The position numbers were made by a program, and so were the translations under genes. From assembly GCA_001789445.1 (NCBI GenBank), contig MFZQ01000013.1, forward strand, positions 4,596 to 68,595: DNA of 64,000 nucleotides, read 5' to 3'. Every line of letters starts with the position of its first letter. The first letter of the stretch is position 1. Origin of the DNA: Candidatus Roizmanbacteria bacterium RIFCSPHIGHO2_02_FULL_40_13b (lineage in GTDB: Bacteria; Patescibacteriota; Microgenomatia; UBA1406; HO2-37-13b). This document shows positions 9,013 through 64,000 of this stretch, in pieces. The notes under the pieces are model-generated. The model saw only the letters and a list, made by a program, of their open reading frames with translations, had not been told where the DNA came from and did not search any database.

Positions 9013-10365
9013 ATGCAGGATAAAAAAAAGACCGCAGAGCCCGCCGACTCATATTTCGGAGAGGATGCGCATCCGATCGTTATAGAACCCATATCTGTTG
9101 AAAATACAGTCACGGATTCTTCATTTAATAATATTCCGCCACAAAAAATGGCTACAACGGAAGAAATTCCAGAGACTGTTTCTGAACCAACTCCAGATGT
9201 GATTGCAGTTGATAGCAATGATCTGGGCGAGCGAATCAAAGATGACTTGAAAATGGCATTTCCAGGTAGTGGGGTGCTTGAAATTACCTACAATGGCTTT
9301 GGTTTTTTGCGCCCAAAATTCACGCCTACAAACGATGACATTTACGTTTCCCAGTCACAAATTCGAAAATTTTGGCTGAGAGCAGGGGACTTTGTGGAAG
9401 GCCTCGTGCGACCACCAAAGCAAAATGAGAAATTTCACGGACTTCTCAAAATCGAAAAGATCAATGGGAAAGAGATGACAGATATGGAAAGCTATAAGCG
9501 ACCACGATTTGACGACCTTACCTCTCTCTATCCGGACCGCCAAATAGTTCTGGAAACAGAAAGCGATGTTATGTCCACACGCATCATGGATCTTATCTCG
9601 CCGGTTGGATTTGGACAGCGCGGAATGATCGTATCGCCTCCAAAAGCAGGGAAGACCACGATTCTCAAAAATATTGCGAACGGTATTACCACGAATTACC
9701 CAGAGGCGCACCTCATCGCTATTCTTATCGGAGAACGGCCAGAAGAAGTGACGGACCTTACCCGCTCGATTAAAGCGGAAGTTGTTGCATCCCACTTTGA
9801 CGAGTCTCCCCGAGAACAAATTCGGGCGGCAGAAATTGCACTTGAACGGGCAAAGCGGCTTGTTGAAATGGGTCGCGACGTCATCATTCTTCTTGATTCC
9901 GTCACGCGCTTAGCTCGAGCCTACAACTTTTCAGTTGAAACATCTGGTCGAACCCTTTCTGGGGGATTTGACCCGGCCGCACTCTACCCAGCTAAAAAGT
10001 TCTTGGGAGCGGCGCGAAATTGTGAAGAAGGCGGAAGTCTCACGATTCTGGGAACGGCACTTGTCAACACAGAATCACGCATGGATGACCTTATTTATGA
10101 GGAGTTCAAAGGAACGGGAAATATGGAAATTCATCTGGATCGCAAGTACGCTGAACAGCGCATTTATCCAGCTTTTGATATTCAAAAATCAGGCACCCGC
10201 CATGATGAGCTCCTTCTTTCCAAAGAAGTGATGGAGAAAGTTGCCATGCTTCGCCGCATGTTGGCGCTTCTTTCAGACGATGAGCGCCTCACGATGCTCA
10301 CTGATAAGCTTGCGAAGAGCAAAACGAATAAGGCGTTTTTGGAGGGATTGAAGAATTTGAAATAA
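9013..10365 (+). CDS. rho: transcription termination factor Rho
   Basis: GFGFLRP RNA-binding region and the PPKAGKTTILKNIANGI Walker A. The first ~85 aa are acidic and low-complexity. Confidence 0.9.
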   Translation: MQDKKKTAEPADSYFGEDAHPIVIEPISVENTVTDSSFNNIPPQKMATTEEIPETVSEPTPDVIAVDSNDLGERIKDDLKMAFPGSGVLEITYNGFGFLRPKFTPTNDDIYVSQSQIRKFWLRAGDFVEGLVRPPKQNEKFHGLLKIEKINGKEMTDMESYKRPRFDDLTSLYPDRQIVLETESDVMSTRIMDLISPVGFGQRGMIVSPPKAGKTTILKNIANGITTNYPEAHLIAILIGERPEEVTDLTRSIKAEVVASHFDESPREQIRAAEIALERAKRLVEMGRDVIILLDSVTRLARAYNFSVETSGRTLSGGFDPAALYPAKKFLGAARNCEEGGSLTILGTALVNTESRMDDLIYEEFKGTGNMEIHLDRKYAEQRIYPAFDIQKSGTRHDELLLSKEVMEKVAMLRRMLALLSDDERLTMLTDKLAKSKTNKAFLEGLKNLK

Positions 10366-38620: not shown

Positions 38621-38860
38621 TTACTTCCCCTCACCCCCTTTTTCTTCTTTCATTTCATTCTTTTCTACAACTTTTACCCCCTCTATATCTAAATCATCGT
38701 TCAGGGTACTTTCAAATTCCTTTTTAACTTTTTTGATCTCTCTTCCAGATTCACCGAGTCCTTTTGCCCATTCCATTAGCTTTTTTTGCCCAAATAGTAC
38801 GAGAAGTATAAATGCAATGATAACAATCTCTGTCGTGCCAAGATTATTTAAAATATTCAT
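38621..38860 (-). CDS. TatA/TatB-like subunit with extended acidic tail
   Basis: LGTTEIVIIAFILLVLFGQKKLMEWAKGLGESGREIKK followed by a charged 40-aa tail. Confidence 0.7.
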   Translation of the reverse strand: MNILNNLGTTEIVIIAFILLVLFGQKKLMEWAKGLGESGREIKKVKKEFESTLNDDLDIEGVKVVEKNEMKEEKGGEGK

Positions 38861-54783: not shown

Positions 54784-56832
54784 ATGAATCGTAAATATAC
54801 TCCTAAAGATATAGAACCTAAAATCGCACAATCCTGGGACGATGAAAATATCTATAAGTCAATTCCCCCTATCTCCCAAACCCCTCCTCCCCCAAACCCT
54901 AAAAAGGCATATATCTTAGTCATGTTTCCATATCCTTCAGGCGAGGGTCTGCATACGGGGCATGCGCGAGTTTATACGGGAACAGATGTCCTTGCTCGTT
55001 TTTTTCGTATGAAAGGAAAATCAGTACTTCACCCAATGGGATTTGACGCTTTTGGTCTTCCTGCCGAAAATGCCGCAATTAAGCTCCAAAAAAATCCAAT
55101 AGATATGGTTCCTGAAAATATTGCAAATTTTAAGCGACAAATGAAGCTCCTGGGCTTATCGTATGATTGGAGTAGGGAATTTTCCACAACAGATCCGGAA
55201 TATTACAAATGGACACAGTGGCTTTTCATTCAATTTTTCAAAATGGGGCTTCTTCATAAGAAAGAAACACCAATATTCTATTGCCCAAACTGTAAAACAG
55301 GACTTGCGCAGGAAGAAGTCTTGGAAGATGGGACGCATGAACGATGTGGGACAGCTGTTGAAGAGCGCAACTTGCCGCAGTGGATTTTTCGAATCACTAA
55401 GTATGCTGACAGACTTCTCGATGATCTTGAAGGTCTTGATTGGCCAGCCGGGATATTACAAATGCAGAAAAATTGGATAGGGAAGAAAGTGGGGAAATCT
55501 GGGGAGTCAACATATCATTTGCGAGATTGGATTTTTTCACGACAACGATATTGGGGGGAACCGATACCGATGATTTTTTGTGATAAATGCGCTGAAAAAA
55601 AAATCAACTACTGGGAAGGGGATAGGAGTAGAGGAGTAGATCATAACAATAATGAAGTGGAACAAATGATATCAGGATTTGTGGATGAAGTGAAGGATGA
55701 TTTATATGGATGGTTTCCGGTTGAAGAGAAGGATTTGCCCTTAAAACTTCCCTATGTGAAAAGTTATATGCCAACGGAAAGTGGGCAGTCGCCCTTGTCG
55801 CAAATTGAAGAGTTCGTACATACAACGTGTCCACATTGTGGTTCAGATGCTCGAAGAGAAACAGATACAATGCCCAACTGGGCAGGAAGTAATTGGTATT
55901 TCTTGTATTTTGGCCGTCAGCATGACAAAACTCGCCCACCGTCTTTACAAAATTGGAAAACAGAGATCGGGGATCCATCTGCCCAGTGGCTTCCAGTGGA
56001 TTGGTATCTGGGTGGGGCAGAGCACGCGGTGCTTCATCTTCTGTACGCACGATTTTGGGTCAAAGCGATGAAAGATATAGGACTTGTTTCTTTCAGTGAG
56101 CCCTTTGCCAAGCTTCGAAGTGTGGGAATGGTCCTTGCGTCCGATAATCGAAAAATGAGCAAGTCGCTTGGAAATGTAGTAAATCCGGATGATGTGGTTT
56201 CCGAATATGGAGCCGATACATTACGGGTGTATGAGATGTTTATGGCGCCATTTGGCCAAGAAGTTGCCTGGTCAGAAAGTGCAATCCAGGGTGCCTACCG
56301 ATTTTTGCAAAGAATTTGGCAGATATTCATAAGCTCTGATAGTATAACAGAAAATCAGGATGAGGAAAACTTTGAACTAGTTGCCGAGCTTCAAAGTACC
56401 ATTTCAAGGATCGAGTCAGATATCACGAACGTGAAATTTAATACATCTATTTCAACAATGATGGAATTCATCAATTTGTGGGAAAAAAAGAAGTTATCCC
56501 GTCAGAGTAGTGCAAAGTTCCTACAAATACTTGCCCCATTTGCTCCATTTATGACCGATTATTTATGGAGAGAAATCTTAAAAAATAAAGAATCAATTCA
56601 TATTTCTACATGGCCGAGTGTTGATAAATCGGTAATTTCTATCAAAAAAGTTACCATAACGATTCAAGTTAATGGCAAAATGAGGGGGGTAATTTCGTTC
56701 GAAAATGGGGACGTGGAGGAAAAAGAGGCCATTGAAGAAGCCCTAAAGCTAGAAAATGTGAAAAAATATGTCGTCGATGATACTTATAAAGTAATCTACG
56801 TCAAAGAGAGAGTATTGAACTTTGTAGTTTAA
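54784..56832 (+). CDS. leuS: leucyl-tRNA synthetase lacking the CP1 editing domain
   Basis: PYPSGEGLHTGH (HIGH), KMSKS, NWIGKKVGKSGESTYHLRDWIFSRQRYWGEPIP. 682 aa. Start moved to the ATG at 54784. Confidence 0.85.
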   Translation: MNRKYTPKDIEPKIAQSWDDENIYKSIPPISQTPPPPNPKKAYILVMFPYPSGEGLHTGHARVYTGTDVLARFFRMKGKSVLHPMGFDAFGLPAENAAIKLQKNPIDMVPENIANFKRQMKLLGLSYDWSREFSTTDPEYYKWTQWLFIQFFKMGLLHKKETPIFYCPNCKTGLAQEEVLEDGTHERCGTAVEERNLPQWIFRITKYADRLLDDLEGLDWPAGILQMQKNWIGKKVGKSGESTYHLRDWIFSRQRYWGEPIPMIFCDKCAEKKINYWEGDRSRGVDHNNNEVEQMISGFVDEVKDDLYGWFPVEEKDLPLKLPYVKSYMPTESGQSPLSQIEEFVHTTCPHCGSDARRETDTMPNWAGSNWYFLYFGRQHDKTRPPSLQNWKTEIGDPSAQWLPVDWYLGGAEHAVLHLLYARFWVKAMKDIGLVSFSEPFAKLRSVGMVLASDNRKMSKSLGNVVNPDDVVSEYGADTLRVYEMFMAPFGQEVAWSESAIQGAYRFLQRIWQIFISSDSITENQDEENFELVAELQSTISRIESDITNVKFNTSISTMMEFINLWEKKKLSRQSSAKFLQILAPFAPFMTDYLWREILKNKESIHISTWPSVDKSVISIKKVTITIQVNGKMRGVISFENGDVEEKEAIEEALKLENVKKYVVDDTYKVIYVKERVLNFVV

Positions 56833-58305: not shown

Positions 58306-59913
58306 ATGAAAGCAGACGATGTCATCCTGGAAGAGCGTAGCGACGATAGGATCCCATTGTCATTCCCGCGAAGGCGGGAATCTATTCAAATGGATCCCCG
58401 ATCGGGGTCGGGGATGACAAATCTTCGGTCCAGAATGACAAATTCCGTCATCCCGAACATTAATTCTGTCATCCTGAACGGAGTGAAGGATCTCGGTGTG
58501 ATAGTATCTTTATTTTTCCTTTTTGTCTCTCCAGTGAGTGCCTCCACAACTACTTCAAGAATCACCATCCCACTCTCCACAAACTCCACGCTCGTGATTT
58601 CTAACACAGACTCCACAGTAGATAAGAAGATCATCATCTCCGATCATCTCTCCTCAACTCGAGTAATTCTTAACGAAGATGGAACAGAATCATCGTCACT
58701 CTCATACTATCCATATGGAGAACAATTTAACAATTTAACCCCGCTTCGCCCGAGGCTTCGCGAGGGCGCAGCAATTTATCAATTTAACAATAGACTCTAC
58801 ACCGGCCAACGTAAAGTTCCCGGTGACAATCTCTACAACTACAACGCCCGCTTCTATAATCCTACCCTCGGAGTTTTCACCCAACCAGATACAGTGGAGG
58901 GACCAAACAGGTTTGCGTATGTGGGAGGAAATCCGATCATGGCAAATGATCCTAGTGGACATTGTATACCCTGTATTATTGGAATTGGTGCATTAGTTGG
59001 AGCGATGGTATCTTCGCCTATGTCATCAACTGAAGCTGATACTCCGGGAGAAATTGCACGAGTTCAAGAGTGGGAAGCAAGTGGCGGACCAGAATTTAAT
59101 TATCTTATGGGAAGAATGATCCCGGGTGTTGGACAGGGAATGGGTCTTGCAGAACTGGCTAGAGGAGAAGATATTTTGGGTAGAGATGTTAGTCGTGGAC
59201 GTAAAATAATGAATGTTGCGGATATCGCACTTATGGGCGCAACATCAGCAAACAGTTTATTGGGTGCACGAAATACAGCAATACAAAGCGCGCGAGTTGC
59301 CCAGTATGAAGGCGGAGCAGAACTATTGGCGGCTAGAAGTGTGGAGGAAGCACAAGAAGTGTTGAGTGGACAAAGTCCTCTTTCCTATAGTAAAATACCC
59401 TTTAGAGAATCTCTAAGGACAGGAAGTTTAGGAACGTACAATAGCTATAATCAAGAAATTTCTTTAGCAAGCACTGATGTGTTAAACAGCTTAAAACATG
59501 AAGGAGTACATGCACTTCAAGATATAAATGGTCATCCTGGATCTGAATTCGCTACAATATGGGGACCAAAAACGATTGTAGGTGAAGCAAAAGATGTACT
59601 ATTAGGAAGGACTGATTCGTCTTGGCTAAAATCAATGGCACGAGAGGATTATAAAAGTCTTTGGAATGACTATGATTCAGAATTAATGGCATACGCTTCA
59701 GCAAATAAAGGTTCGATTAGTGCACAGATTGGTGGAGCTATGGGTTCAACATCATCGCGTTTGCTATTTAACCAAGGAAACGCAGTAAAAGCGTCAGGGA
59801 TGGGAGTATCTATAGGAATTACAGCTGTTCAGCCATTAGGATATTTTGCACAATTACAAGCACAAGTAATGGCTTCCATTAATGGTGGTTACGAAAGAAT
59901 AAAATTTAAATAA
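58306..59913 (+). CDS. RHS-core polymorphic toxin, C-terminal domain type 2 (HExxH-containing)
   Basis: Same promoter/ATG block and the same ~140-aa RHS-core region as 28674-30038, up to GGNPIMANDPSGH. A different 316-aa tail contains LKHEGVHALQD. Confidence 0.7.
   Translation: MKADDVILEERSDDRIPLSFPRRRESIQMDPRSGSGMTNLRSRMTNSVIPNINSVILNGVKDLGVIVSLFFLFVSPVSASTTTSRITIPLSTNSTLVISNTDSTVDKKIIISDHLSSTRVILNEDGTESSSLSYYPYGEQFNNLTPLRPRLREGAAIYQFNNRLYTGQRKVPGDNLYNYNARFYNPTLGVFTQPDTVEGPNRFAYVGGNPIMANDPSGHCIPCIIGIGALVGAMVSSPMSSTEADTPGEIARVQEWEASGGPEFNYLMGRMIPGVGQGMGLAELARGEDILGRDVSRGRKIMNVADIALMGATSANSLLGARNTAIQSARVAQYEGGAELLAARSVEEAQEVLSGQSPLSYSKIPFRESLRTGSLGTYNSYNQEISLASTDVLNSLKHEGVHALQDINGHPGSEFATIWGPKTIVGEAKDVLLGRTDSSWLKSMAREDYKSLWNDYDSELMAYASANKGSISAQIGGAMGSTSSRLLFNQGNAVKASGMGVSIGITAVQPLGYFAQLQAQVMASINGGYERIKFK
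58321..58492. repeat. cluster of family-A and related hairpin elements inside the 5' coding region of the second RHS gene
   Basis: gtcatcctggaag..ggatc, tgtcattcccgcgaaggcgggaatc..gtcggggatgaca, ..cagaatgaca, cgtcatcccgaac.., tgtcatcctgaacgg..ggatc. Translated as ..LSFPRRRESIQMDPRSGSGMT... Confidence 0.75.
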
Positions 59914-59983: not shown

Positions 59984-60048
59984 CAAAAACTGCAAAAGGT
60001 GTGCGTATTCACCTTTAAGGTGGATAGGCACACCTTTTGCAGTTTTTG
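59984..60048. repeat. perfect 21-bp inverted repeat hairpin downstream of RHS-2
   Basis: caaaaactgcaaaaggtgtgc (59984-60004) pairs with gcacaccttttgcagtttttg (60028-60048). The loop contains cacctttaaggtg. Confidence 0.8.
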
Positions 60049-60081
60049 CAATTATTCGCTTTTTATTATATTCTTGATGAA

Positions 60082-60981
60082 ATGTTAGTACTACTTCTTG
60101 CTATTTTAGGTCTCTGTATTGGATCTTTTTTAAATGTTTGTATTGATAGATTGGGGAATGAGGAGGAGAGGAGAAGATGGGGGGATGGGGAGAGCGAGAG
60201 GTGGGGAGGAAAAGAGGAGGGGATAGGGAGACTGGGAGGACGGTCGCATTGTGATTATTGCCATAAACAACTCCACTGGAACGATTTGATTCCGGTAGTT
60301 TCGTATATTCTTTTAGGAGGAAGATGTAGGTATTGCCATAAAAAGCTTTCACTCCAATATCCTTTCATTGAAATCCTCACGTCTGTATCATTTGTACTTG
60401 TATATCTCTTTTCCCCCCATCTTCTCCTCTTATCCTCCCCACCTCTCGCTCTCCCCATCCCCCCATCTTCTCCTCTCCTCCTCATAAGCATCTTAGGAAT
60501 AATCTCCTCCTCCATCGTCATCTTCTTTTCCGACCTCAAATACCACATCATTCCCGATGAAGCAACAGTCGTACTTATCCTTTCATCTTTGTTATTCCAT
60601 CTCTCCACCTCTCAATCTCTCGATCTCCATCTCTCCACCTCTCCACTACTCCACATTCTCCTTTCCAGTATCACCGCAGCAATCTCCCTCTCTCTCACCC
60701 TCTATTTCATCTTTTATGTCACAAAAGGACGGGGAATGGGATTTGGGGATGTTAAACTTGCCGTTGCCATCGGCTTGCTTTTGGGCCTAAAAAGTGGTTT
60801 TTTTGCGCTATATTTGGCATTTGTGGCTGGAGGAGTGGTGAGCTTACTCCTCATCCTTATGAAAAGGAAGAAATTGCGAAGCAAATTAGCATTCGGACCG
60901 TTCCTTATCTTCGGAACCCTCGTCATGTTCTTCGCAAACAAGCCAATTATTGCGTTTTTTGATAGGTTGTTTGGGATGTAG
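60082..60981 (+). CDS. pilD: prepilin peptidase (A24 family)
   Basis: CIGSFLNVCIDRL, CDYC...CRYC zinc motif, IIPDE and GFGDVKL active-site aspartates. Start placed at the ATG at 60082. Confidence 0.8.
   Translation: MLVLLLAILGLCIGSFLNVCIDRLGNEEERRRWGDGESERWGGKEEGIGRLGGRSHCDYCHKQLHWNDLIPVVSYILLGGRCRYCHKKLSLQYPFIEILTSVSFVLVYLFSPHLLLLSSPPLALPIPPSSPLLLISILGIISSSIVIFFSDLKYHIIPDEATVVLILSSLLFHLSTSQSLDLHLSTSPLLHILLSSITAAISLSLTLYFIFYVTKGRGMGFGDVKLAVAIGLLLGLKSGFFALYLAFVAGGVVSLLLILMKRKKLRSKLAFGPFLIFGTLVMFFANKPIIAFFDRLFGM
60158..60210. repeat. left arm of a perfect 53-bp inverted repeat inside pilD (purine-rich family C)
   Basis: atgaggaggagaggagaagatggggggatggggagagcgagaggtggggagga. Confidence 0.9.
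60433..60485. repeat. right arm of the perfect 53-bp inverted repeat inside pilD
   Basis: Exact reverse complement of 60158-60210, checked base by base. Confidence 0.9.
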
Positions 60982-60982
60982 T

Positions 60983-61042
60983 TGTCATCCCCGAGTAGTC
61001 GGGGATCCATACATGTAGATTCCCGCTTTCGCGGGAATGACA
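60983..61042. repeat. family-A dual-hairpin element
   Basis: tgtcatccccgagtagtcggggatccatacatgtagattcccgctttcgcgggaatgaca. Confidence 0.8.
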
Positions 61043-61924: not shown

Positions 61925-62188
61925 TTATACCCTAATAACATCAATTCCCAAAAACACATCCACCACATTCTTGAATACCTGCAAAATGCCCATGTCGATG
62001 GTAAATTCTTTTTCCCCCCCACCTATTTCATGAACGGTAATGGTTTTATTTACAATACAAATGAACTGGGAATGGAATCCAAGTATATCAAAATTTCCAC
62101 GCTCGTTATAAGATGACACTGATTCAGCAGAACCTTCATAAATCACTTTGTCCGCGTCATGGATAGTTACTGTTAGTGTTTTGTCCAT
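61925..62188 (-). CDS. atpC: F1 ATP synthase epsilon subunit, beta-sandwich domain only
   Basis: LTVTIHDADKVIYEGSAESVSSYNERGNFDILGFH pattern. 87 aa with no C-terminal helical hairpin. Confidence 0.7.
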   Translation of the reverse strand: MDKTLTVTIHDADKVIYEGSAESVSSYNERGNFDILGFHSQFICIVNKTITVHEIGGGEKEFTIDMGILQVFKNVVDVFLGIDVIRV

Positions 62189-62195
62189 AGTTTTT

Positions 62196-62358
62196 TGAGA
62201 GGAGATGAGGGAGAAGATAGGGTGATAGGGGGAGCGAGAGGTGGGGAGAATGGAAGACGGGAAATAAGCAGAAAGCTAATTAGCTCGCCCTCTCTGTTTA
62301 TTTCCTCTCCTCTTCTCCTCCGCCCCACCCTATCTCCCTAGCACCTCCTCCCCTTCTC
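62196..62358. repeat. family-C long imperfect palindrome filling the atpD-atpC spacer
   Basis: The purine-rich arm (..gatagggggagcgagaggtggggag..) and pyrimidine-rich arm are centred on ctaattag. The arm is related to the pilD repeat. Confidence 0.7.
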
Positions 62359-62359
62359 C

Positions 62360-64000
<1,641 letters not shown>

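What the first reader, a model, noticed from the sequence alone, without database searches (positions are those of the whole stretch)
60158..60485. Perfect 53-bp inverted repeat inside pilD flanking the zinc-finger segment
60158-60210 and 60433-60485 are exact reverse complements (53/53). The match extends to about 62 bp with one mismatch. Both arms are translated (NEEERRRWGDGESERWGG... and ...SSPPLALPIPPSSPLLL).

The 222-bp segment between them starts on a codon boundary and is a multiple of three. It encodes the conserved CDYC...CRYC region.

Two consequences follow:
- The mRNA can form a 53-bp duplex, a likely RNase III or translation-block target.
- Recombination between the arms would invert the segment. 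I translated the inverted version and it starts with TAA, so inversion would truncate PilD and act as an off switch for pilin maturation.

Perfect identity over 53 bp in a coding region implies recent insertion, gene conversion or selection.
Basis: partly seen in the sequence, partly recalled or inferred. Interest (0 to 1): 0.65.

Follow-up and report, generated by a model that had tools for sequence, protein, structure and literature searches.

The report
Repeat-element copies inserted inside pilD
The perfect 53-bp inverted repeat in this Roizmanbacteria prepilin-peptidase gene is real, and it consists of two oppositely oriented, in-frame copies of a small purine/pyrimidine-rich repeat that is scattered through this genome; there is no evidence that it works as an invertible off switch.

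Summary
60158-60210 and 60433-60485 are exact reverse complements (53/53). The match is 62 nt with one mismatch and 74 nt at 93%. Twelve public contigs from at least 11 samples carry identical arms in the same orientation, so this is not an assembly artefact.

Other copies are:
- a 170-nt hairpin between atpD and atpC (62190-62359), absent in relatives;
- one upstream of the atp operon;
- three on another contig of the same genome.

Arm A is an 18-21-codon insertion in a linker that is 7-8 residues long in 67 of 69 homologues. Arm B lies in a variable loop. All repeat-derived segments fall in low-confidence loops of a confident AlphaFold model.

The single mismatch in the 62-nt homology is AAA in arm A where arm B's complement reads TAA in the same frame. 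This fits arm A being a recent inverted copy of arm B.

However, no inverted allele, predicted inverted-state protein or recombinase was found. The mRNA duplex (about -125 kcal/mol) is predicted only. I read this as a new member of the MITE/RPE-like kind, of moderate interest.

The parts
60082..60981 (+). Prepilin peptidase gene (pilD-like, peptidase A24 with N-terminal four-Cys domain). An alternative TTG start lies at 60037.
   Evidence: ORF. PF06750 and PF01478 on the identical protein P0001/P0121. 2791 homologues. Catalytic Asp151 and Asp223 and Cys57/60/85 are invariant in 70 sequences.
60158..60231 (+). Arm A, the GA-rich repeat copy. It is perfect over 60158-60210, 62 nt with one mismatch to 60219, and 74 nt at 93%. 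It encodes EERRRWGDGESERWGGKEE(GIG), an 18-21-residue insertion in the cytoplasmic linker between TM1 and the first CxxC.
   Evidence: The linker is 28 residues here against 7-8 in 67 of 69 homologues, with a maximum of 20. pLDDT is 51-64 over residues 31-50.
60211..60432 (+). Segment between the perfect arms. It holds the conserved CDYC...CRYC zinc-finger region and TM2, collinear with homologues. Inverting it would place TAA in frame directly after ...ERWGG.
   Evidence: Alignment. Inverted-state translation.
60412..60485 (-). Arm B, the same repeat unit in the opposite orientation (CT-rich on the + strand). It is perfect over 60433-60485. It encodes (SPH)LLLLSSPPLALPIPPSSPLLL in the variable loop between TM2 and TM3 and contains an internal 18-nt duplication.
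   Evidence: The loop is 41 residues here against a median of 35 and a range of 25-58. pLDDT is 59-68 over residues 111-130.
60593..60666 (-). Possible third, diverged CT-rich copy. It is 75% identical to arm B over 44 nt and is itself a 30-nt tandem duplication. It encodes HLSTSQSLDLHLSTSP, about 10 extra residues in the TM4-TM5 loop. Family membership is weak.
   Evidence: D1, I2. nhmmer E = 1e-7 and 1e-4. Only z = 2.4 against shuffles. Loop of 56 against a median of 46. pLDDT 70.
62190..62359 (.). Full palindromic copy of the same family. It fills the spacer between the atpD stop (62360-62362) and the atpC start (62186-62188), both on the minus strand. The GA arm is 62196-62277, the centre is AGCTAATTAGCT, and the CT arm is 62285-62362.
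   Evidence: Arm A against 62199-62262 is 81.5% over 65 nt, E = 8e-11, with 0 of 2000 shuffles reaching the score. The hairpin folds at -87.7 kcal/mol, z = -5.5. In relatives L003, L004 and L006 the stop and start are 1 nt apart.

Best explanation
The inverted repeat is made of two oppositely oriented copies of one unit of a small, strand-asymmetric palindromic repeat family. The unit is purine-rich on one strand and pyrimidine-rich on the other. The family is dispersed in this Candidatus Roizmanbacteria genome.

In pilD the copies lie in frame in loop-coding positions on either side of the zinc-finger domain.
- Arm B sits in the naturally variable TM2-TM3 loop.
- Arm A is an 18-21-codon insertion in the normally fixed-length cytoplasmic linker.

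Arm A was most likely produced recently from arm B, 275 bp away. The likely route is a local inverted copying event, meaning a replication template switch or gene conversion, primed at the A(T/A)GAGGAG microhomology. A T-to-A change then removed an in-frame TAA that an exact copy would have carried.

The insertions persist for three reasons. GA/CT tracts are almost free of stop codons. The lengths are multiples of three. The encoded peptides sit in tolerant loops: charged E/R/G/W in the cytoplasm, and L/S/P-rich outside.

The repeat is chiefly selfish or neutral DNA. Its side effects are a very stable long-range duplex in the pilD mRNA and a substrate for rare homologous inversion, which would give a null allele.

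Shown: the repeat, the family, the insertion status, the loop location and the single orientation in assemblies. Inferred: the direction and mechanism of copying, neutrality, and any RNA or DNA consequence.
For: **The family is real and lies in the same genome.**
- Arm A matches the atp-spacer arm with E = 8e-11.
- It matches L024 arms over 49-64 nt at 83-86%, and arm B's outer end matches over 33 nt at 94%.
- 0 of 2000 dinucleotide shuffles reach the observed scores for atp_L, L24c_L and L24c_R.
- An nhmmer model finds a copy it was not built from at L011:18383-18444, E = 2.7e-8.
- L024 proteins OGK49909.1 and OGK49910.1 share the locus-tag prefix A3A56 with pilD copy OGK49456.1.
- The atp copy is lineage-specific, because atpD and atpC are 1 nt apart in three relatives.

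**Arm A is an insertion.** The linker is 28 residues here against 7-8 in 67 of 69 homologues.

**The repeat-derived segments are loops.** They are the only three pLDDT dips in a model with mean pLDDT 88.

**Origin.**
- The 62-nt homology is bounded by ATGAGGAG and AAGAGGAG.
- The sequence left after removing the 54 inserted nt, AATGAGGAG|GGGATAGGG, encodes NEE|GIG, the motif seen in relatives.
- The single mismatch is AAA in arm A against TAA in the same frame of arm B's complement.
- The two other copies that share the core (atp_L and L24c_L) also have T at that column.

**Stop-free.** Five of the six frames of the unit are open.

**Not an artefact.** Twelve contigs are identical.
Against: - The direction of copying (B to A) rests on one mismatch and on loop-length statistics. 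Two independent insertions from one master copy, or later homogenisation by gene conversion, would look the same.
- No target-site duplication, transposase or other mobilising enzyme was identified, so how the family spreads is unknown.
- Only about 83 kb of this genome was examined, so genome-wide copy number and the number of other in-frame insertions are unknown.
- Neutrality is assumed and was not tested.
- Exact identity of pilD across all strains sampled gives no population contrast.
Confidence: 0.6

Rival explanations
1. Two separate transposition-like insertions. A mobile MITE/REPIN-like element, mobilised in trans, inserted one unit on each side of the zinc-finger region from the same master copy. 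The perfect identity then reflects recency rather than local copying.
For: The family is dispersed over at least two contigs and six or more loci. Lone half-units occur (L024:11770-11850) as well as hairpin pairs with variable spacers. The pilD arms and the right arm of the L024c copy share a defined terminus...ATCTTCTCCTCTCCTCCTCAT.
Against: Two hits from one master in a 900-bp gene, and no identical copy elsewhere in 83 kb, is unparsimonious. No target-site duplication was seen. No transposase appeared in the annotated 20 kb or in 20 further ORFs. The homology ends exactly at microhomologies with the host sequence.
Confidence: 0.22
2. An RNA-level regulator. The arms are kept because the 53-74-bp duplex in pilD mRNA is cleaved by RNase III or blocks ribosomes, keeping PilD low. 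Correia/NEMIS repeats are processed in this way in Neisseria.
For: The predicted duplex is -125 kcal/mol for 53 nt and -153.5 kcal/mol for 74 nt. The 521-nt fold is -213 kcal/mol against -144 +/- 6 for shuffles, and the arms pair in the centroid. The atp and L024 copies are also transcribed hairpins. RNase III cleavage at Correia inverted repeats is documented (PMC10969869, read).
Against: No transcript data are available. Ribosomes translating through arm A would melt the duplex. The perfect pairing is fully explained by recent copying. Other family hairpins are imperfect, so there is no sign of selection for pairing.
Confidence: 0.1
3. A phase-variation switch (intragenic inverton). Recombination between the arms reversibly inverts 60211-60432 and truncates PilD after residue 43, turning off pilin maturation in a subpopulation.
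For: The geometry is right and inversion gives an in-frame TAA. Premature-stop intragenic invertons exist in other bacteria (10.1101/2023.03.11.532203, read). On general knowledge, a 53-bp identity is long enough for occasional RecA-dependent exchange.
Against: All 12 contigs fetched are in one orientation. None of nine inverted-state ORF products is in the collection of about 15 billion proteins. No recombinase gene was found nearby. The arms are generic repeat copies rather than a dedicated recombination site.
Confidence: 0.06
4. Assembly or sequencing artefact, or plain low-complexity slippage with no relation to other loci.
For: GA/CT tracts and hairpins are error-prone. One protein-level assembly (P0125) shows odd deletions next to both arms.
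Against: The DNA is identical in 12 contigs from three pipelines. The ORF is intact with catalytic residues. Similarity to other loci far exceeds composition-matched shuffles.
Confidence: 0.02

Closest known systems
Rickettsia palindromic elements (RPEs)
   Same: Both are small dispersed palindromic repeats that can sit in frame inside protein-coding genes. Both add peptide segments at positions compatible with fold and function (PMC10969869). Here the segments fall in AlphaFold low-confidence loops.
   Different: RPEs are translated as whole elements of about 150 bp and encode a conserved peptide. Here single half-units of 54-74 nt are inserted in either orientation, and two of them flank a host domain. 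The composition is strongly purine/pyrimidine asymmetric. Only one gene with in-frame copies has been seen so far. The organism is a CPR bacterium, not a Rickettsia.
Correia / NEMIS elements and other bacterial MITEs
   Same: Both are short non-coding repeats with inverted ends. Both are mostly intergenic and co-transcribed, form hairpins in mRNA, and can sit next to promoters. The L024 copies abut outward TATAAT boxes.
   Different: No TA or other target-site duplication was found, and no related insertion sequence or transposase. The arms of full copies are only about 50-80% complementary. RNase III processing is untested.
REP / BIME / REPIN repeats
   Same: In both, units occur singly or as inverted pairs with variable spacers, and they cluster locally. 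The pilD pair resembles a doublet with a very long (222-nt) spacer.
   Different: REP units are short imperfect palindromes mobilised by RAYT transposases. No RAYT was seen, each unit here is not itself palindromic, and the sequences are unrelated. This genome does hold a separate REP-like double-hairpin family.
Intragenic invertons
   Same: In both, inverted repeats lie wholly inside a gene, and inversion introduces a premature stop (10.1101/2023.03.11.532203).
   Different: In that study, invertons were called from reads supporting both orientations and are presumed to be flipped by invertases. One of their repeats is 11 nt. Here the repeats are 53-74 bp, only one orientation is seen, and no invertase was found.
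Short-range template-switch mutations that create hairpins
   Same: In both, a reverse-complement copy of nearby sequence is inserted in one event, bounded by microhomology, and creates a perfect inverted repeat (mechanism as in PMC7954356, abstract seen).
   Different: Events of this kind are usually short and close to their template (my own knowledge, not checked here). Here 54-62 nt were copied from 275 bp away, inside a coding region, and kept in frame.

Membership tests
Prepilin peptidase (peptidase A24, PilD type) | A24 N-terminal four-Cys domain (PF06750) plus the peptidase A24 domain (PF01478) | tested here: met
   Both are precomputed Pfam hits on the identical proteins P0001 and P0121.
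Prepilin peptidase (peptidase A24, PilD type) | Two catalytic aspartates and the CxxC...CxxC cysteines are conserved | tested here: met
   D151, D223, C57, C60 and C85 are invariant in 70 aligned sequences. C82 (numbered C81 there) is at least 90% conserved in the 21-sequence alignment.
MITE | Many dispersed, short, non-coding copies in one genome | tested here: met
   At least six loci in about 83 kb on two contigs of the same genome. The genome-wide count is unknown.
MITE | Terminal inverted repeats | tested here: met
   Full copies in the atp spacer and at L024:13417-13585 fold as long imperfect hairpins.
MITE | Target-site duplication flanking each copy | tested here: not met
   I saw no duplication at the atp insertion when it was compared with the empty sites of relatives. 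In pilD, the A(T/A)GAGGAG repeats are part of the copied unit.
MITE | A related autonomous element or transposase | tested here: inconclusive
   None in the 20 kb around pilD or in 20 other window ORFs. The rest of the genome was not available.
RPE-like in-frame palindromic insertion | The repeat is inserted in frame in an ORF that stays intact | tested here: met
   Arm A is 54-63 nt. The ORF and catalytic residues are intact.
RPE-like in-frame palindromic insertion | The whole palindromic element is translated as one conserved peptide, in many unrelated genes | tested here: not met
   Only half-units are translated, in two orientations, and in one gene. A six-frame peptide search found nothing.
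RPE-like in-frame palindromic insertion | The insertion lies at a position compatible with the protein fold | tested here: met
   The three repeat-derived segments are the only pLDDT dips and are non-helical loops.
Intragenic inverton | Inverted repeats flank a segment wholly inside a gene | tested here: met
Intragenic inverton | Both orientations are present in populations | tested here: not met
   Twelve contigs show one orientation. Nine inverted-state products are absent from the protein collection. Raw reads could not be examined, so low-frequency inversion is not excluded.
Intragenic inverton | A site-specific invertase acts on the repeats | tested here: inconclusive
   None in the parts of the window examined. 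The genome is incomplete here.
Correia/NEMIS-type RNase III substrate | The transcript hairpin is cleaved by RNase III | not testable with these tools
   Only the duplex is predicted.
Known RNA families (Rfam 15) | A match at gathering score | tested here: not met
   There are only sub-threshold hits to plant and animal miRNA hairpin models, reflecting generic long hairpins.

The most novel reading that the evidence does not exclude
The GA/CT repeats may have been co-opted. In pilD, the perfect pair would act as a recombination-driven, reversible null switch, or as an RNase III-sensitive attenuator, for type IV pilus maturation in a CPR bacterium. On general knowledge, such organisms depend on pili for attachment and DNA uptake. 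In the atp operon, the hairpin would re-create stop-start proximity for translational coupling.
Probability: 0.08. Interest if true: 0.75.

Novelty: new member of a known kind. Interest (0 to 1): 0.4.

Why it matters
**What it adds**
- It documents a previously undescribed small repeat family in a Candidate Phyla Radiation genome. My literature search found no paper pairing CPR or Roizmanbacteria with MITE or REP terms.
- It is a clear case outside Rickettsia of repeat DNA being absorbed in frame into an essential-type membrane enzyme.
- The orientation-dependent peptides match membrane topology: charged in the cytoplasm, L/S/P-rich outside.

**Practical point**
- Perfect intragenic inverted repeats found by sequence scanning can be by-products of selfish repeats. 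They need read-level evidence before being called switches.

**If the novel reading were true**
- If inversion or RNA processing were shown, this would be a simple route to pilus phase variation in organisms with very few regulators.

Tried and rejected
**Searches that found nothing**
- An exact 28-mer of the arm gave 0 hits in genome contigs and in metagenome contigs.
  - This genome is not in genome contigs.
  - The metagenome scan is not exhaustive. It missed L016, although another contig of that metagenome is held. Negative scans are therefore weak evidence.
- A protein search with the six-frame translations of the arms returned nothing at E <= 10. It did not even return PilD itself, presumably because of low-complexity filtering.
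- Two arm patterns gave 0 hits in viral contigs.
- Rfam gave only sub-threshold miRNA-hairpin matches.
- The pyrimidine tract at 38621-38669 is not a family member (z = 0.8).

**Ideas rejected**
- That 60158-60485 is one element carrying the zinc finger as cargo. The interior is collinear with homologues and about as conserved as the rest of the gene.
- That the arms are the left and right arms of one split canonical element. In full copies the two arms carry different cores: GAGCGAGAGGTGGGGAG on one, and TGGGGCGGAGGAG (read as its complement) on the other. Both pilD arms carry the first core.

**Relatives**
- The four closest relatives with DNA in hand (L003-L006) have no family copy at pilD. 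L003, L004 and L006 also have none at the atpD/atpC junction.

Full report
**Observation**

The repeat is exactly as described.
- 60158-60210 and 60433-60485 are perfect reverse complements (53/53).
- Nothing matches outward. Inward the match continues to 62 nt with one mismatch and to 74 nt at 93%.
- The 45-nt core occurs exactly twice in the window and never in 100 dinucleotide shuffles.

The ORF is a prepilin peptidase.
- It carries PF06750 and PF01478.
- It has 2791 homologues.
- The catalytic Asp151 and Asp223 and the cysteines are conserved.

The organism is a Candidatus Roizmanbacteria (Candidate Phyla Radiation) from RIFCSP genome bins, with protein accessions OGK18808.1, OGK27168.1 and OGK49456.1.

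**Not an artefact**

I fetched twelve public contigs: L001, L002, L011-L019 and L026. They come from at least 11 samples and three pipelines (MEGAHIT k141 contigs, ANAN16 scaffolds and JGI assemblies).
- Eleven carry pilD DNA identical to the window. L026 differs by one SNP at 60227, outside the 62-nt homology.
- All twelve are in the same orientation.

**What the arms are**

A relaxed blastn of arm A against the window found a homologous GA-rich stretch at 62199-62262 (81.5% over 65 nt, E = 8e-11). A pyrimidine-rich partner lies at 62285-62362.

Together they fill the 170-nt spacer between the atpD stop and the atpC start. The spacer folds into one long imperfect hairpin (-87.7 kcal/mol, z = -5.5). 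In three relatives the two genes are 1 nt apart (TAATATG or TAGTATG), so this is a lineage-specific insertion.

A 20-mer shared by arm A and the atp copy retrieved L024 and L025 from JGI metagenomes. These hold three more copies, all intergenic:
- a hairpin upstream of metG;
- a lone CT half between convergent gene ends;
- a full hairpin upstream of a PBP2-like gene.

The proteins on L024 are OGK49910.1 and OGK49909.1, with locus-tag prefix A3A56. That is the same genome record as pilD copy OGK49456.1 (A3A56_00175).

An nhmmer model then found a further copy, which it was not built from, upstream of the atp operon. It lies at L011:18383-18444, about 4.4 kb beyond the window end (E = 2.7e-8).

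The similarity is not just shared composition. None of 2000 dinucleotide shuffles of arm A reached the observed alignment score against atp_L, L24c_L or L24c_R (z = 5.5-6.5). An unrelated pyrimidine tract in the window scored z = 0.8.

The arms therefore belong to a genome-specific, dispersed, purine/pyrimidine-asymmetric palindromic repeat family. Rfam has no matching family. Relatives' loci L003-L010 have no copies.

**Relation to the protein**

| Segment | Length here | In 69 homologues |
|---|---|---|
| Linker between DRL and GRS (arm A) | 28 residues | 7-8 in 67 of them; maximum 20 |
| TM2-TM3 loop (arm B) | 41 residues | median 35, range 25-58 |
| TM4-TM5 loop (third CT-rich stretch, 60593-60666) | 56 residues | median 46 |

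- Arm A is therefore an 18-21-codon insertion.
- Arm B lies in a loop that varies naturally in length.
- The third stretch adds about 10 residues, but it is only weakly assignable to the family (z = 2.4).

An AlphaFold model built on 70 sequences has mean pLDDT 88 and pTM 0.86. Its only dips fall over residues 31-50, 111-130 and 181-190, which are the three repeat-derived segments, all non-helical.

By the accepted PilD topology, the zinc-finger domain and both catalytic Asp are cytoplasmic. This rests on my own knowledge and was not tested here. On that basis:
- the GA orientation supplies a charged E/R/G/W peptide in the cytoplasm;
- the CT orientation supplies L/S/P-rich peptides on the outer side.

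Five of the six frames of the unit are free of stop codons. This explains why such DNA can be absorbed into a coding region.

**Origin of the perfect pair**

The pilD arms are identical to each other. They match other family copies at 78-94% over stretches of 33-70 nt.

Both arms carry the same core, GAGCGAGAGGTGGGGAG. In full copies the left and right arms carry different cores. The pair is therefore an inverted duplication of one unit, not a split canonical element.

The boundaries fit local copying.
- The 62-nt homology starts at ATGAGGAG and ends at AAGAGGAG.
- Removing the 54 inserted nt leaves AATGAGGAG|GGGATAGGG. This encodes NEE|GIG, the motif seen in relatives.
- This is the signature expected of a template switch or gene-conversion copy primed on microhomology. 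The mechanism is described in PMC7954356.

The single mismatch is informative.
- Arm A reads GGA GGA AAA, where the complement of arm B reads GGA GGA TAA in the same register.
- The two other copies that share the core (atp_L and L24c_L) also have T at that column.
- So A looks derived, and it removes what would be an in-frame stop.

An alternative reading, in which the switch-back occurred just before this base, needs no mutation and cannot be excluded. Two independent insertions from one master copy also remain possible.

**Consequences**

RNA:
- The arms are predicted to pair at -125 kcal/mol (53 nt) or -153.5 kcal/mol (74 nt).
- They dominate the fold of 60040-60560, which is -213 kcal/mol against -144 +/- 6 for shuffles (z = -10.8).
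- Arm A starts 76 nt after the ATG.
- Comparable hairpins in Correia elements are RNase III substrates (PMC10969869). Nothing here tests that.

DNA:
- All contigs have the native orientation.
- None of nine predicted inverted-state ORF products exists in the collection of about 15 billion proteins.
- No recombinase is annotated within 10 kb or among 20 mid-sized window ORFs.
- In the study I read (10.1101/2023.03.11.532203), intragenic invertons were called from reads supporting both orientations. That criterion is not met here.

**Comparison with known systems, and verdict**

The closest known kinds are:
- Rickettsia palindromic elements, for in-frame insertion at tolerant positions;
- Correia/NEMIS and other MITEs, for co-transcribed hairpins;
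- REP/REPIN doublets, for units paired in inverse orientation.

The family fails or leaves open several MITE criteria. It has no target-site duplication and no known transposase. It differs from RPEs in that half-units, not whole elements, are translated.

I file it as a new member of the small palindromic repeat kind. The pilD pair is a recent local inverted copy.

The inference of a recent insertion is supported. The RNA idea is open. The off-switch idea is unsupported.

**Caveats**
- Only about 83 kb of the genome was seen.
- Collection scans were demonstrably non-exhaustive.
- No reads or transcripts could be examined.

Noticed in passing
window 60982-61042; also 966, 2511, 10428, 11606, 17726, 31618, 32466, 39079, 58358: This is a second, more abundant dispersed repeat, with at least 10 copies in the window. 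It is a double hairpin of about 63 nt (GTCATTCCCGCGAAGGCGGGAATC...GGATCCCCGATCGGGGTCGGGGATGAC). One copy sits directly after the pilD stop. One is translated inside the N-terminus of ORF 58306-59913. Several public contigs break there.
   Followed up: partly
window 62186-62362: The 170-nt hairpin insertion separates atpD and atpC, which are 1 nt apart in relatives. No Shine-Dalgarno-like sequence precedes atpC. The base of the hairpin would bring the atpD stop and the atpC start close together, which hints that coupling could survive the insertion.
   Followed up: partly
P0125 (SRR3990167 protein-level assembly), corresponding to window 60134-60560: This 119-aa sequence matches the zinc-finger region exactly. 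Its ends imply a 38-nt deletion inside arm A and a 29-nt deletion just after arm B. Both lie between short direct repeats and both shift the frame. It could be a minority allele, a library artefact or an assembly chimera.
   Followed up: partly
window 59984-60048: A near-perfect 32-nt hairpin (94% complementary, 1-nt loop) lies between the upstream gene's stop and the pilD start. It looks like a terminator stem.
   Followed up: no
L024:13395-13600 and 10290-10345: In the L024 copies, the repeat ends abut outward-facing TATAAT boxes a few bases from the start codons of the PBP2-like gene and metG. The repeats may therefore carry or sit beside promoters of near-leaderless genes.
   Followed up: no
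window 58306-59913 and 28799-29226: The 535-aa ORF upstream of pilD has no Pfam hit on record. It shares an 85-87% identical stretch of about 430 nt with a second gene at 28674-30038. In L001, all 67 mismatches to the window (97.8% identity overall) fall upstream of pilD, which is identical.
   Followed up: no
window 54864-54910: A CT-rich stretch encodes PPISQTPPPPNP near the N-terminus of a class I tRNA synthetase gene. Scaffold L014 has an N-gap with duplicated flanks at this spot. The family model did not detect it.
   Followed up: partly
window 60179-60236: Arm A on the coding strand fits an extended G-quadruplex motif, with five or more G3+ runs and loops of 12 nt or less. It is probably outcompeted by pairing with arm B. 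This was not examined further.
   Followed up: no
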